Source of the DNA: the human T2T-CHM13v2.0 reference genome, Homo sapiens
Direction: 5' to 3' (one strand)
DNA length: 64,000 nucleotides
NCBI RefSeq assembly: GCF_009914755.1
Contig: NC_060933.1
Below, in pieces: positions 6,814 to 43,486 of the stretch. Every line of letters begins with the position of its first letter. Position 1 is the first letter of the stretch. Made by a program: the position numbers and the translations under genes. A model generated the notes under the pieces. That model had not been told where the DNA came from. It ran no database searches and saw only the letters and a list, made by a program, of their open reading frames with translations.

Positions 6814-6979
6814 CACTCATTCTGGTCAGCATCACAGTTGCAGTATGTTGCAGGATTCCTGGGAGTCGATGTGATTTTTTCTAATACACACATATGTTTC
6901 TCAACATTGGGCAAATAACCTCTCCGGTAACTGTGCGCTTTGCTGGTTCTTCCTACCTACCAGCTCAACAGGGTATCAT
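6814..6979 (-). pseudogene. CNTNAP-like exon 14 relic (fibrinogen-like domain)
   Basis: Reads DDTLLSW*VGRTSKAHSYRRGYLPNVEKHMCVLEK/HIDSQ/YCNCDADQNEW, versus recalled CNTNAP3/4 DGTPLSWWVGRTNET(H/Q)[35 protein letters not shown]. 166 nt = 157 + 10 - 1. Acceptor ttttttcag intact. Confidence 0.92.
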
Positions 6980-7093
6980 CTGAAAAAAGAATATGAGAAA
7001 GGCGAGTCCTATTTAGCCCAACTACTCACCCTCTAATGCGGTTCCGCTTCCGCTCAGATAATGACGTAAAAACAGTTTTTTGGTGTGTGTGGG

Positions 7094-7396
7094 TTTTTTT
7101 TTTTTTGGGGGGGTGGTGGCAGAGTCTTGCTCTGTTGCCCAGGCTGGAGTGCAGTGGCGTGATCTCGGCTCACTGCAAGCTCCGCCTCCTGGGTTCACGC
7201 CATTCTCCTGCCTCAGCCTCCCGAGTAGCTGGGACTACAGGCACCCGCCACCACGCCCGGCTAGCTTTTTGTATTTTTAGTAGAGACGGGGTTTCACCGT
7301 GTTCGCCAGGATGGTCTCGATCTCCTGACCTTGTGATCTGCCCGCCTCGGCCTCCCAAAGTGCTGGGATTACAGGTGTGAGCCACTGCACCCAGCC
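7094..7396 (-). mobile_element. AluY
   Basis: Antisense Alu. Confidence 0.95.
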
Positions 7397-7500
7397 GAAA
7401 GAAACAGCTTTAAGAAAATAACAATCCAAACCCTGCAACAGAACATTTCTTTAAGAATACTAACCAGCTTTTTTTTTTTTTTAATTAAAAAAATATTTAC

Positions 7501-7804
7501 GGCTGGGCGCGGTGGCTCATGCCTGTAATCCCAGCACTTTGGGAGGCTGAGGCGGGCGGATCACGAGGTCAGGAGATCAAGACCATCCTGGCCAACACGG
7601 TGAAACCCTGTCTCTGCTGAAAATACAAAAAAATTAGCCGGGCATGGTCGTGGGCTCATGTAGTCCCAGTTCACGGGAGGCTGAGGCAGGAGAATGGTGT
7701 GAACTCAGGAGGCGGAGCTTACAGTGAACCGAGATGGCGCCACTGCACTCCAGCCTGGGGGACAGAGCGAGACTCTGTCTCAAAAAAAGATAAAATAAAA
7801 TAAA
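7501..7804 (+). mobile_element. AluSc/Y
   Basis: Sense Alu. Confidence 0.95.
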
Positions 7805-7867
7805 GAGCCTTTAATATGTTCAGTAATTACACAAAATTAATTATCTTGAGCAGACCAGTTACATAAT

Positions 7868-8190
7868 TTCTTTTGTTTTTGTTTTCTCTTTCTTTCTTTC
7901 TTTTTTTTTACACAGAGTCTTGCTTTGTCACCCAGGCTGGAGTGCGGTGGCCTGATCTTGGCTCGCTGCAGCCTCTGCCACCTGAATTCAAGCGATTCTC
8001 CTGTCTCATTCTCCCAAGTAGCTAGTACTACAGGTGCATTCCACCCCACCTGGCTAATTTTGTGTTTTTAGTAGAGACGGGATGTCACCATGTTGGCCAG
8101 GCTGATCTTGAACTCCTAACCTCTGGTGATCCTCCTGCCTTGGCCTCCCAAAATGCTGGGATTACAGGCATAAGCCATCACGCCCTGCCC
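7868..8190 (-). mobile_element. AluS
   Basis: Antisense Alu. Confidence 0.95.
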
Positions 8191-8399
8191 TGTAATTTCT
8201 TGAAAACAATTTTCAAAGATTGTTTTCATAAAAATAAGTAGCAGCTATGTAGAGATTGAAGCTAAAATCTGTTTGAGACAATGGAGTGCCTATCTAAAAC
8301 CCTAATGTCATGAGGAGATATGATTTGTTATTGCATTTATTAGATAAAACCCCCAGCTGCATATTAAACATTTAGCGTGACATGGTTCTACTTCTTTGT

Positions 8400-41278: not shown

Positions 41279-41436
41279 GAAAATAAGAATTTAATTTCTT
41301 CAGGGATCCTGAGTATCTCTCATTACCTAAAGTGTTCATTTATTACCAAATGATTAACTTTCTATTTATGTGTGAGGTTTGTGGGAGACCATAGAGAAGT
41401 TTTGTTTAAAACATCTACGTATTTCTTTACATAATT

Positions 41437-41674
41437 CATTTATTATATCCCTTGTTGAATGTTCTGGCTGAGAAAGATTTAATTTAAGCTTTCCATCAAT
41501 GAGAACAAAGATGAGGCTTGCTGAAATATGTTGATGTTCACTGGACAGCAAATATCCTGCTCTGTTCTATATTCAAAGTTGAAAAGTGATGGAAACCTCA
41601 TCCTCATCCTCAGGGCTCAGAAAAGTCACAAGGTCTTTGACTTTGAAGAGTGGAACAAGAGGGCAACATGTTTT
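41437..41674 (-). pseudogene. CNTNAP-like exon 8 relic (LamG2)
   Basis: Reads LVTFLSPEDEDEVSITFQL*I*NRAGYLLSSEHQHISASLIFVLIDGKLKLNLSQPEHSTRDII, versus recalled [73 protein letters not shown]. Two stops, an internal deletion, acceptor ttactag intact, donor lost. Confidence 0.88.
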
Positions 41675-42356
41675 CTAGTAAGTAAAGTAAGTGAGGCTAT
41701 GGAGTAGGTTTCAGAGTGGCACTTTCAATCTTACTCGGACATGTCAAAGTCTTTACAAAGGCTTCTTCTAGACCTGTAAGCCTAGAATTAATATAAACGC
41801 TCACCTAGGTCAAATTCAATGATATTTATCTTAAAGGACTTTCAAATCTAAGTGGGTTTCAATAAGGCAAACCCTTCTGAGTCTTTTATTTCCCTAAGCA
41901 TAAAATTCTATCTTCTCTACCTTCTGTACTTCTCAGCATTAGCAAAGGAATCTCATGATAATTGAATTCAATAGTAGTTTATCTGATGCCAACTATTTTC
42001 CCGTCTCTATGCTGGGCCCTGGGTACACAACAATGAAAACAATGTCCTCCTCTCCACTACCCAGGCTGCCTTCTCCTCTAAATTGAACAATTGTCTGTGA
42101 TTCACCAACAACAAGAACTTTTCTTTACTTACCTACCTAAAATATATAAACACAATTGACAACTTTAGGCATGTTCTTTCAATTGGAGGACAATTACAAA
42201 TAGTTGTCCTTTGTATTGATGAAAAGGCTAGTGGCAAGGTTGGTTGTGGCCTGGGCAGCAGGCTAGATGGGCCTCTCAGGAGGACTTGCTAGGTTGCAGT
42301 GCCCCAGAGCAATTTATGACATAAAATCTGTAATATTTGAGAGATAATTGTCACAT

Positions 42357-42527
42357 CTTATAATCAAGATCAAATAACTGGGTTCTCCTTTTGTCTGCAA
42401 ATGATGATTGTGCTTGCCCACGGTGAAGCCGACCTGCGTGTCAAGGAGCTCGATGAGGATGGAATCCCAGTGCTGGCTGCCAGGGTGAGGGTCATTTTGG
42501 TTGCAGGCGAGGGTGATAGAATGTTAC
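42357..42527 (-). pseudogene. CNTNAP-like exon 6 relic (LamG1)
   Basis: Reads ..[11 protein letters not shown]/frameshift/[40 protein letters not shown], versus recalled CNTNAP3 [49 protein letters not shown]. 171 nt plus 13-nt and 1-nt deletions gives 185 nt, the recalled family exon size. Acceptor AG>TG, donor GT>AT. Confidence 0.92.
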
Positions 42528-42987
42528 CAAAAAGAGAGGAAAAACAAACTTTCAATTATGACAAGTGCAAAAATCTTTTTATTTTGAGGTTTAGCATTTC
42601 TCAAAATAATTACAGTTACATGCTTCCGTACTACATACTTCTCTCTCAAAGATTAGTTGGTTGGATTTATCTAGGGCTTGAACACAATATCCTATCAACC
42701 TTGTAATCCTTTACATATCATTTGTATTGTTTTTACTCATTTAGCTCAGTTTCCATTGAAATGTTACCTTTGCTCATTATTGCTACCTCTAAATGTCCTG
42801 TCCTTGTTTTTATGAGAACGGTGTGTAGCTATGTTGTTACATTAGAACTATATAAAGAGCATTAAAAGATGTACTTATTTCACAAATTGTTAAAATATAA
42901 ACAAAATATAAAGCAAAAGACAATAGAGATATATAAACATAGCCCTTAAGAGCTGTAGATACACTCTTTTTTTGCCAAAGATTTCTA

Positions 42988-43238
42988 TTTTTTATTGTAG
43001 ATTTGGAGCGGGGGTACATGTGCAGGTTTGCTACAAGGATATATTGCATGATGCTGAGGTTTGGGTTTCAACTGAATCCATCACCCAAATAGTGAACATA
43101 GTACCCGATAGGTAGTTTTTCACCCTTTGCCCCTTCCCTCTTTTCTGTCCTTCAGATTCTCCAGAATCTATTGTTCTCATTTTTGTGTACATGTGTACCT
43201 AATGTTTAGCTTCCACTTGTAGGTAAGAACATGTGATA
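42988..43238 (-). mobile_element. L1P 3'-end fragment in CNTNAP-like intron 5
   Basis: ggtacatgtgcaggtttgctacaagg...aatgtttagcttccacttgt. Confidence 0.8.
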
Positions 43239-43301
43239 TAAATATACTCTTAAATTGTTCAAAGACTATGAATGCATCAAAAATATTTCCAAATGCCTTG
43301 C

Positions 43302-43486
43302 CTGAGAGTTTTATCTGAGTGAAAAGAGTTTTCTTTTTATTAATCCCAGGTTGATATGAGCTCCACTTTGTTCTCTGTGGAGTAAAATCCTATCTCTCTG
43401 AGGTTTTTGTTTTTAACAATTCTCATTGATTTTTATTGTACATATAAAAATGAAATCATTTAAGAAGATTCATAATGACAAGATAT
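43302..43486 (-). pseudogene. CNTNAP-like exon 5 relic (first LamG domain)
   Basis: Minus strand reads KPQRDRILLHREQSGAHINLGLIKRKLFSLR*NSQ, versus recalled CNTNAP3 [36 protein letters not shown]. Acceptor ccctacag; donor CAG|gcaagg. The 5' third is poorly conserved. Confidence 0.8.

What the first reader, a model, noticed from the sequence alone, without database searches (positions are those of the whole stretch)
6814..43486. Fossil of an ancient CNTNAP3/4-like Caspr gene, possibly a lost paralogue (unitary-type pseudogene)
Seen: four minus-strand segments, fragmentary or absent in the ORF track, translate across frameshifts to Caspr motifs: [34 protein letters not shown]...NRAG.LL...DGKLKL; LSW*VGRT...IDSQ..YCNCDADQNEW. 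They occur in family order 5-6-8-14, and two match recalled exon sizes once indels are counted. Known: the human CNTNAP3 segmental-duplication copies are near-identical to CNTNAP3. Inference: this copy has many substitutions, stops and dead splice sites, so it is not one of those recent duplicates. It is more likely an old paralogue that died, and it may still be intact in other mammals.
Basis: partly seen in the sequence, partly recalled or inferred. Interest (0 to 1): 0.85.

Follow-up and report, generated by a model that had tools for sequence, protein, structure and literature searches.

The report
Ancient broken copy of CNTNAP3
The window holds the decayed front half of a roughly 100-million-year-old genomic duplicate of the neuronal adhesion gene CNTNAP3; it is far older than the well-known recent chromosome 9 copies, but nothing shows that it ever worked as a gene.

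Summary
They lie in a collinear chain of intron-plus-exon homology to the CNTNAP3 locus, running from window 5592 to at least 82543, beyond the window's right end. This is therefore an unprocessed genomic duplicate. Introns differ by K2P about 0.40 and exons by 18-28%. Recent CNTNAP3 copies differ by only a few percent.

The copy is heavily damaged. Exon 5 is split by a 1.6 kb insert, exons 7 and 12 are deleted, and splice sites are dead. Exons 17-19 survive about 190 kb away, inverted. The whole block now exists in four 96-99% identical copies. RefSeq labels only exon 6, as CNTNAP3P9.

All three codon positions have diverged almost equally, so it died early.

A by-product: placental "CNTNAP3" is really two old paralogues, A (human, rodents) and B (carnivores, ungulates, bats, squirrels, sloth). 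The fossil carries none of four B signature residues, so it is probably a third, early-dead lineage.

The locus is of moderate interest.

The parts
5592..64000 (-). 5' half of the fossil CNTNAP3 duplicate within the window. It is collinear with CNTNAP3 from intron 14 back to intron 3, and the homology continues beyond the window to at least 82543 (CNTNAP3 intron 2).
   Evidence: Repeat-filtered chain of 27 HSPs, score 2587 against 704 for the inverted control. Continuation in the right flank. Intron K2P 0.40 over 7021 columns; reversed-sequence control gave 1 hit.
45023..45128 (-). Exon 5, 5' half. The AG acceptor is kept; there are several frameshifting indels.
   Evidence: tblastn aa193-213, 52%. 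DNA alignment. 98 aligned bases, 74.5% identical.
43401..45022 (.). 1.6 kb insertion that splits exon 5. Read on the minus strand, it opens with an Alu-like head directly after the exon sequence, and it also holds an older repeat.
   Evidence: The exon 5 alignment breaks at 45023 and resumes at 43400. 44717-45023 is 90% identical to another Alu-sized repeat, and 43513-44219 matches dispersed copies. The name 'Alu' is recalled; it comes from no repeat library.
43318..43400 (-). Exon 5, 3' half (the ILLHRE motif). The donor has changed from GT to GC.
   Evidence: tblastn aa216-241, 65%. Chain HSP 43327-43400 <-> C9:39191577-39191653. Alignment.
42365..42530 (-). Exon 6 ([15 protein letters not shown]). 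Acceptor AG->GG, donor GT->AT, and the 5' third is partly deleted. RefSeq's CNTNAP3P9 (42358-42550) is this piece.
   Evidence: tblastn 73%, E 7e-11. 80% DNA identity to C9:39190723-39190869. Alignment. Hub annotation table.
41913..42033 (-). Remnant of intron 7 just upstream of exon 8. Exon 7 itself is missing: 324 bp lie here where CNTNAP3 has 5.35 kb.
   Evidence: blastn 80% to C9:39185246-39185365. Chain spacing. No exon 7 signal.
41444..41680 (-). Exon 8 (NRAG...DGKLKL). It has two in-frame stops, a 25 bp and a 4 bp deletion, and the donor is deleted.
   Evidence: tblastn 46%, E 2e-10. Alignment.
17929..17978 (-). Trace of exon 11 (EGF-like exon), at the position the chain predicts.
   Evidence: DNA local score 16 against a shuffle maximum of 12. 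Peptide score 47 against a shuffle maximum of 43. Weak on its own.
6813..6980 (-). Exon 14 (LSW*VGRT...YCNCDADQNEW). It has a TAG stop and a 10 bp insertion; the AG acceptor is kept and the donor is GT->GA.
   Evidence: tblastn 46%, E 1e-7. Alignment.
48090..50480 (.). GC-rich 2.4 kb insert inside the fossil's intron 4. It is not part of the CNTNAP3 homology.
   Evidence: One continuous 87% match to C19:935836-938186, and 98-99% matches in the three sister blocks. GC 59-70%.

Best explanation
The window holds the 5' half (intron 2/3 to just past exon 14) of an unprocessed genomic duplicate of CNTNAP3.

Origin. The duplicate arose by DNA-level duplication close to its parent and head-to-head with it, before the Euarchontoglires radiation and at about the time placental CNTNAP3 split into paralogues A and B. 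That is an inferred age of roughly 85-120 million years.

Decay. It decayed neutrally from about the time of its birth. It was then broken up by deletions (exons 7 and 12), transposon and duplicon insertions (in exon 5 and intron 4), and a rearrangement. That rearrangement left exons 17-19 about 190 kb away in the opposite orientation.

Recent history. Much later, the whole block of CNTNAP3 plus fossil was copied around the chromosome 9 pericentromere. Four 96-99% identical copies of this half now exist.

Function. It has no coding function today.

What is shown and what is inferred. Shown: homology, extent, damage, copy number, divergence, and absence of clade-B signature residues. Inferred: the absolute age, the whole-gene origin, and the early death.
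For: - Exon matches fall in the order 5, 6, 8, (11), 14.
- The intron-plus-exon chain runs from window 5592 to 82543 against C9:39130325-39267425.
- Divergence: intron K2P is 0.40 over 7021 columns; the 3' part's introns give 0.35-0.47; exon DNA identity is 71-83%.
- Damage: stops, frameshifts and dead splice sites.
- Neutral pattern: codon-position differences are 0.25/0.23/0.31 and 0.20/0.16/0.24.
- CNTNAP3 clade membership: 9 CNTNAP3 states, 0 CNTNAP4 states, 3 other, at 12 discriminating sites.
- ML trees place it outside crown Euarchontoglires A (UFboot/SH-aLRT 99/98) and outside boreoeutherian B (97/89).
- At A-derived sites it mostly keeps the ancestral residue. It shares only 1 of 3 pre-crown and 1 of 3 Euarchontoglires changes. 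It shares 0 of 4 B-derived changes.
- 3' half: exon 17 at C9:78363741-78363940 (+), exon 18 at 78367733-78367946 (+), exon 19 trace at 78371120-78371215 (+), with collinear introns.
- Block copies at 39.55, 41.13 and 43.85 Mb are 96-99% identical.
- Three of the four fossil copies lie 298-366 kb from exon 6 of a CNTNAP3-family copy on the opposite strand (39.55, 43.85 and 78.60 Mb). For the fourth (41.13 Mb) only later exons of the neighbouring copy at 41.34-41.39 Mb were seen.
Against: - AU tests reject no placement of the fossil, not even next to human CNTNAP3 (p 0.08-0.46). The statement 'outside both crowns' therefore rests on branch supports and on a handful of diagnostic sites.
- The ti/tv ratio in the intron alignments is about 0.9, so some columns are misaligned. 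BLAST also keeps only the better-conserved stretches. K may be off in either direction.
- Pairwise dN/dS is 0.41 (223 codons). That is lower than the roughly 0.6 expected for a copy neutral from birth, which would allow some early constraint.
- Exons 3, 4, 9, 10, 13, 15, 16 and 22 were not found. A whole-gene origin is inferred from complementary halves, not shown.
- The absolute age uses a human-lineage neutral rate that I recalled and did not read here.
Confidence: 0.72

Rival explanations
1. The fossil is the dead human orthologue of the clade-B CNTNAP3 gene. That gene is intact in Laurasiatheria, Afrotheria, Xenarthra and squirrels. On this reading the fossil is a true unitary loss on the primate line.
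For: - Human has no intact clade-B gene. Exon 6 and exon 18 peptide searches of the whole genome find no CNTNAP3-like relic other than this one.
- A and B lie on one contig in Sciurus, Callospermophilus and Choloepus, just as CNTNAP3 and the fossil are neighbours in human.
- The A/B split predates crown placentals, which fits an intron K of 0.40.
- The ML trees put the fossil beside B, weakly (75/70; 65/14).
- AU tests do not reject the fossil with squirrel B (p 0.085 and 0.30).
- The sloth paralogues show gene conversion, which could in principle have erased B residues.
Against: - The fossil shares 0 of 4 polarised B-derived residues and has the exact ancestral residue at 3 of them. It retains 70% of invariant residues (143 of 205), so about 2.8 matches were expected; 0.3^4 is about 0.008.
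- In exon 5 it looks ancestral, lacking both A-specific and B-specific states.
- The neutral codon pattern gives no sign that it was a working gene for a long time.
Confidence: 0.13
2. The 5' piece (exons up to 14) and the 3' piece (exons 17-19) are two independent partial duplications. On this reading no whole second gene ever existed.
For: - The two pieces are about 193 kb apart and inverted relative to each other.
- The 3' piece has 6 copies and the 5' piece has 4.
- No exons 15-24 and no chain were found in the 26 kb downstream of exon 14.
Against: - The exon sets are complementary and do not overlap.
- Intron divergence is the same: 0.40 against 0.35-0.47.
- The two pieces travel together at 229-244 kb spacing in all four blocks.
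Confidence: 0.1
3. It is one of the recent human CNTNAP3 segmental-duplication copies, or a processed pseudogene.
For: It lies in the chromosome 9 pericentromeric duplication zone and bears a CNTNAP3P name (hub table).
Against: - Its exons are 71-83% identical to CNTNAP3 at the DNA level, while the recent copies are 92-100% identical at the protein level.
- Intron homology and genomic exon spacing rule out retroposition.
Confidence: 0.01

Closest known systems
Human CNTNAP3 (Caspr3), C9:39.09-39.30 Mb in this assembly
   Same: Same exon order, shared intron sequence, and CNTNAP3-specific residues.
   Different: About 40% neutral divergence. Stops, frameshifts and dead splice sites. At least exons 7 and 12 are deleted. 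The copy is broken into two inverted halves.
Recent CNTNAP3 duplicates (CNTNAP3B at 43.45-43.63 Mb; further copies at 41.34-41.39 and 78.88-79.06 Mb)
   Same: Same chromosome 9 pericentromeric blocks. The fossil is carried along with them.
   Different: They are 92-100% identical to CNTNAP3 at the exon peptide level. The fossil is 46-73% identical.
RefSeq pseudogene CNTNAP3P9 (hub table, 42358-42550, given as + strand)
   Same: It is exon 6 of this fossil.
   Different: The label covers 193 bp of a relic that spans more than 77 kb here, plus a second half elsewhere. The coding sense found here is the minus strand.
Clade-B 'CNTNAP3' of carnivores, ungulates, bats, eulipotyphlans, afrotherians, xenarthrans and squirrels
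   Same: An old CNTNAP3 paralogue that is missing as a live gene in human. It split from the human gene at about the same depth as the fossil did.
   Different: The fossil lacks all 4 polarised clade-B residues.
Unitary pseudogenes (category recalled, not tested against examples)
   Same: A dead gene with no live copy of its own lineage in human.
   Different: A unitary pseudogene is the relic of a gene that worked and is still alive in other species. Neither point is shown here.

Membership tests
CNTNAP3 gene lineage (as against CNTNAP4/5/2/1) | Closer to CNTNAP3 than to the other family members in sequence | tested here: met
   Exon 6 peptide: 71% to CNTNAP3, 56% to the chr2 locus and 47% to the chr16 locus. 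At 12 sites where clades A and B agree and CNTNAP4 differs, the fossil has 9 CNTNAP3 states, 0 CNTNAP4 states and 3 other.
CNTNAP3 gene lineage (as against CNTNAP4/5/2/1) | Collinear exon order and shared intron sequence with the CNTNAP3 locus | tested here: met
   The introns of CNTNAP4 and CNTNAP5 were not fetched for comparison.
Recent chromosome 9 segmental duplicate of CNTNAP3 | Near-identity (more than about 90-95%) to CNTNAP3 across exons and introns | tested here: not met
   Exon DNA identity 71-83% and intron identity about 69% of aligned bases.
Processed (retroposed) pseudogene | Exons joined without introns | tested here: not met
   Exons are spread over more than 38 kb with homologous intron sequence between them.
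Unitary pseudogene | Signs of a past period under purifying selection | tested here: inconclusive
   Codon positions diverged nearly equally, which argues against. Pairwise dN/dS of 0.41 leaves some room. No branch model could be run without non-human DNA.
Unitary pseudogene | An intact orthologue at the syntenic place in other species | not testable with these tools
   No non-human mammal genome is held. Only protein records with contig lengths were available.
Clade-B CNTNAP3 orthologue | Carries the residues derived on the clade-B stem | tested here: not met
   0 of 4 (sites 183, 195, 197, 698). The fossil has the ancestral residue at 3 of them. The sample is small, and AU tests do not reject.
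Clade-A CNTNAP3 (human-type) crown member | Carries the residues derived on the Euarchontoglires A stem | tested here: not met
   1 of 3. With the smaller protein set, the fossil has the ancestral residue at sites 198, 202, 218, 307, 308, 410 and 441. The tree excludes it from the crown at 99/98.

The most novel reading that the evidence does not exclude
On the placental stem, CNTNAP3 went through a burst of local duplication that produced three genes. Lineages then sorted them differently. Human and most rodents kept A. Laurasiatherians and afrotherians kept B. Squirrels and sloths kept both. The fossil is the only remaining trace of the third copy, or, less likely, it is the corpse of B itself. 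If so, the 'CNTNAP3' of pig, dog, bat or whale is not the orthologue of human CNTNAP3.
Probability: 0.5. Interest if true: 0.55.

Novelty: new member of a known kind. Interest (0 to 1): 0.4.

Why it matters
In itself this is an old duplicated pseudogene, which is an ordinary kind of object. It matters in three ways.

1. It corrects the annotation. A 193 bp 'CNTNAP3P9' is in fact one exon of a relic that spans more than 77 kb, has a second inverted half, and exists in four copies.

2. It gives a dated marker that was already in place before the chromosome 9 pericentromeric duplications, which helps in reconstructing how those blocks were built.

3. Following it up exposed hidden paralogy in CNTNAP3. 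CNTNAP3 is a neurodevelopmental candidate gene. Comparisons between human or mouse CNTNAP3 (clade A) and the 'CNTNAP3' of carnivores, ungulates or bats (clade B) would be comparing paralogues.

Tried and rejected
- Pfam scan and PDB sequence search with the exon 6 ORF (P0001): no hits, even at E 10.
- Protein-database search with P0001, mode 'longer': 7 candidates, none scored.
- tblastx of the window against the CNTNAP3 locus: swamped by repeat matches and sum statistics, so not used.
- First chaining attempt: dominated by Alu-to-Alu matches. Replaced by the repeat-filtered chain.
- Whole-protein search of the genome with P0016: only 36 of 275 candidates were scored and no fossil pieces were listed. 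Single-exon queries worked instead.
- Targeted searches for exons 3, 4, 7, 9, 10, 12, 13 and 15 in the intervals the chain predicts: scores lay within the shuffle range. An exon 13 'hit' at 11114-11152 lies in a masked repeat and was dismissed.
- Left flank, window -20000 to 6800: no exons 15-24 and no chain.
- Rfam scan of the window: 0 matches. Tandem-repeat and direct-repeat scans of the GC-rich stretch found only a short (TTTTG)n.
- AU tests: none rejected any placement.
- Literature: five searches. I saw search listings only and read no paper. 'CNTNAP3P' occurs in 15 papers whose titles and abstracts are gene-expression and similar studies. Nothing was found on an ancient CNTNAP3 relic or on CNTNAP3 paralogy. 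Subscription journals are not covered.
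Full report
**1. The observation**

Human CNTNAP3 (P0016, 1288 aa, returned by the protein database) was run with tblastn against the window. It gave 6 HSPs with E<1. Five are minus-strand and collinear:
- aa193-213 at 45094-45032
- aa216-241 at 43400-43326
- aa270-306 at 42475-42365 (73%, E 7e-11)
- aa372-442 at 41629-41444 (E 2e-10)
- aa694-746 at 6980-6813 (E 1e-7)

The sixth is a plus-strand match at 36181-36249 (E 0.39), which I take as chance. 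The same protein mapped on the true CNTNAP3 locus (C9:39070001-39270000) gives the exon series.

**2. What kind of copy it is**

A sensitive blastn of the window against 200 kb of the CNTNAP3 locus was filtered for positions that hit many places. It yields a collinear same-orientation chain of 27 HSPs with score 2587, from window 5592-60123 to C9:39130325-39220486. The best chain in the inverted orientation scores 704. A search against the reversed, uncomplemented locus finds one 49 bp hit.

Most of the chain is intron. One example is 15238-16043 against 39154237-39155041, 836 columns at 65%. The chain continues in the right flank that I fetched, up to window coordinate 82543 against CNTNAP3 intron 2.

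To the left, 26 kb downstream of exon 14 hold no further exon and no chain.

**3. Damage (unless another call is given)**

- Exon 5 is split at 45023/43400 by a 1.6 kb insert. On the minus strand the insert opens with an Alu-like head (a name I recalled, not from a library).
- Exon 5: donor GT->GC.
- Exon 6: acceptor AG->GG, donor GT->AT.
- Exon 8: two stops, a 25 bp and a 4 bp deletion, donor lost.
- Exon 14: a TAG stop, a 10 bp insertion, donor GT->GA.
- Exons 7 and 12 fall in fossil deletions: 324 bp against 5.35 kb, and 90 bp against 1.34 kb.
- Exon 11 leaves a weak trace at 17929-17978, at the predicted place.
- Exons 3, 4, 9, 10, 13 and 15 gave nothing above shuffles.

**4. A second half outside the window**

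A whole-genome search with the exon 18 peptide found six decayed copies on chromosome 9. One is at C9:78367730-78367906, about 186 kb left of the window and on the plus strand, so it is inverted relative to the window's half.

The 6 kb that I could still fetch hold exon 17 at 78363741-78363940 and exon 18 at 78367733-78367946. Both carry a stop and frameshifts, and collinear intron matches flank them. An exon 19 trace lies 3.2 kb further on in all six copies. Exons 16 and 22 gave no fossil.

The exon sets of the two halves are complementary. Their intron divergence is alike. They keep a spacing of 229-244 kb in all four blocks. From this I infer one former whole gene that was later broken by a rearrangement. 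This is inference, not proof.

**5. Copies and neighbourhood**

Pieces of the window have three sister copies at about 39.55, 41.13 and 43.85 Mb. The pieces tested were 42300-42600, 5200-7050 and 48090-50480, plus the far-left flank. Identity is 96-99%.

True CNTNAP3-family copies lie at 39.09-39.30, 41.34-41.39, 43.45-43.63 and 78.88-79.06 Mb. For three of the four blocks, fossil exon 6 lies 298-366 kb from exon 6 of the neighbouring CNTNAP3 copy, on the opposite strand. For the 41.13 Mb block only later exons of the neighbour were seen. The fossil therefore predates the recent pericentromeric duplications and was copied along with its parent.

**6. Age**

- Pure intron HSPs: 7021 aligned columns, p 0.307, K2P 0.40. 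Individual HSPs range from 0.27 to 0.49. The introns of the 3' half give 0.35-0.47.
- Exon DNA identity to CNTNAP3 is 71-83%.
- Caveats: ti/tv is only about 0.9, so some columns are misaligned, and BLAST keeps only the better-conserved stretches.
- About 0.2 substitutions per site per copy is a little more than the value I recall for the human lineage since the human-mouse ancestor (about 0.17, from the mouse genome paper, recalled and not read here). That puts the duplication near or before the base of the placental radiation. I give roughly 85-120 million years, as an inference.

**7. Did it ever work?**

Against CNTNAP3, codon positions 1, 2 and 3 differ by 0.252, 0.230 and 0.305 over 226 codons. 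In exons 17-18 they differ by 0.200, 0.164 and 0.236 over 140 codons. Second positions have thus diverged about as much as one neutral lineage plus a constrained partner would give. This fits decay from about the time of birth.

Pairwise Nei-Gojobori dN/dS is 0.41 over 223 codons. That is somewhat below the roughly 0.6 I would expect for a copy neutral from birth, so a short early period of constraint cannot be excluded. No branch model could be run without non-human DNA.

**8. Family tree and an unexpected result**

Full-length ML trees were built with 37 proteins and 53 proteins. They split what the databases call CNTNAP3 into two clades.
- Clade A (SH-aLRT 99) holds one sloth protein plus all sampled Euarchontoglires (SH-aLRT 100): primates, rabbit and rodents.
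- Clade B (SH-aLRT 100) holds afrotherians, xenarthrans, laurasiatherians and squirrels.

Both types occur in one species and on one contig in three cases:
- Callospermophilus lateralis: P0122 and P0070, 71% identical.
- Sciurus carolinensis: P0124 and P0056, 70% identical.
- Choloepus didactylus: P0148 and P0138, 82-84% identical, with long identical runs that look like gene conversion.

So A and B are paralogues that are older than crown placentals. Human has A only.

**9. Where the fossil sits**

A codon-wise read-through of the fossil was placed in these alignments (223 columns, then 360). It falls in the CNTNAP3 clade. At 12 sites that separate CNTNAP3 from CNTNAP4 it has 9 CNTNAP3 states, 0 CNTNAP4 states and 3 other.

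In the trees it forms a basal polytomy with A and B. It lies outside crown Euarchontoglires A (99/98) and outside boreoeutherian B (97/89) (similar results).

AU tests, however, reject nothing:
- fossil with A, p 0.41-0.46
- fossil outside A+B, p 0.20-0.37
- fossil with squirrel B, p 0.085 and 0.30
- fossil with primate A, p 0.12 and 0.23
- fossil with human A, p 0.22

Diagnostic residues are more telling. The fossil shares 0 of 4 B-derived states, with the ancestral residue at 3 of them. It shares 1 of 3 A-derived states that predate the sloth split, and 1 of 3 from the Euarchontoglires stem. It retains 143 of 205 invariant residues, or 70%.

A recent copy of human CNTNAP3, or a true clade-B orthologue, should carry most of the respective derived states. 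I therefore read the fossil as a lineage that left at about the time of the A/B split. It is probably a third copy. Clade-B orthology is disfavoured but not excluded.

**10. What is known**

The hub's table shows RefSeq's CNTNAP3P9 at 42358-42550. That is exon 6 alone, and it is given on the plus strand, whereas the coding sense is minus. Five literature searches (listings only, no paper read) found nothing on an ancient CNTNAP3 relic or on the A/B paralogy. Gene-tree databases could not be consulted.

**11. Verdict**

It is an ordinary kind of object with a moderately interesting history. The hidden paralogy is the more useful by-product.

Noticed in passing
proteins P0016, P0093, P0122, P0124, P0148 (clade A) against P0070, P0056, P0138, P0085 and others (clade B); not in the window: Proteins named 'CNTNAP3' in placentals form two old paralogue clades. 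Human, other primates, rabbit and rodents have A. Laurasiatherians and afrotherians have B. Squirrels and a sloth have both, on one contig. Cross-order 'orthologue' comparisons of CNTNAP3 may therefore compare paralogues.
   Followed up: yes
P0148 against P0138 (Choloepus didactylus): The sloth's two paralogues are 82-84% identical, with long identical runs, yet they differ at the A/B signature sites in exon 5. This looks like gene conversion between neighbouring copies, or a chimeric gene model.
   Followed up: partly
window 48090-50480: A GC-rich (59-70%) 2.4 kb stretch inside the fossil's intron 4. It is one continuous 87% match to C19:935836-938186, including its flanking Alu-sized repeat. 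It looks like a small duplicon transposed from chromosome 19p, and it is present in all four blocks.
   Followed up: partly
window 42358-42550: The hub table gives CNTNAP3P9 on the + strand. The CNTNAP3-like reading frame and the whole chain are on the - strand.
   Followed up: yes
C9:44309194-44309373 and C9:80253684-80253860 (outside the window): Two further copies of the fossil's 3' half (exon 18, with the exon 19 trace nearby). No partner 5' half turned up for them in the exon 6 searches.
   Followed up: no
window 20484-21317; also window -8352 to -7765 (L037): An 0.8 kb element that is about 80% identical to CNTNAP3 intron 3 at C9:39228083-39228696. It occurs twice near the fossil and out of chain order. 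It is probably an interspersed repeat family; it was not identified.
   Followed up: no
window 8974-9989 and 30011-30812: The RefSeq 'enhancer' features from the hub table lie in what were introns 13 and 8/9 of the fossil. No CNTNAP3 homology was detected at those places in the chain.
   Followed up: no
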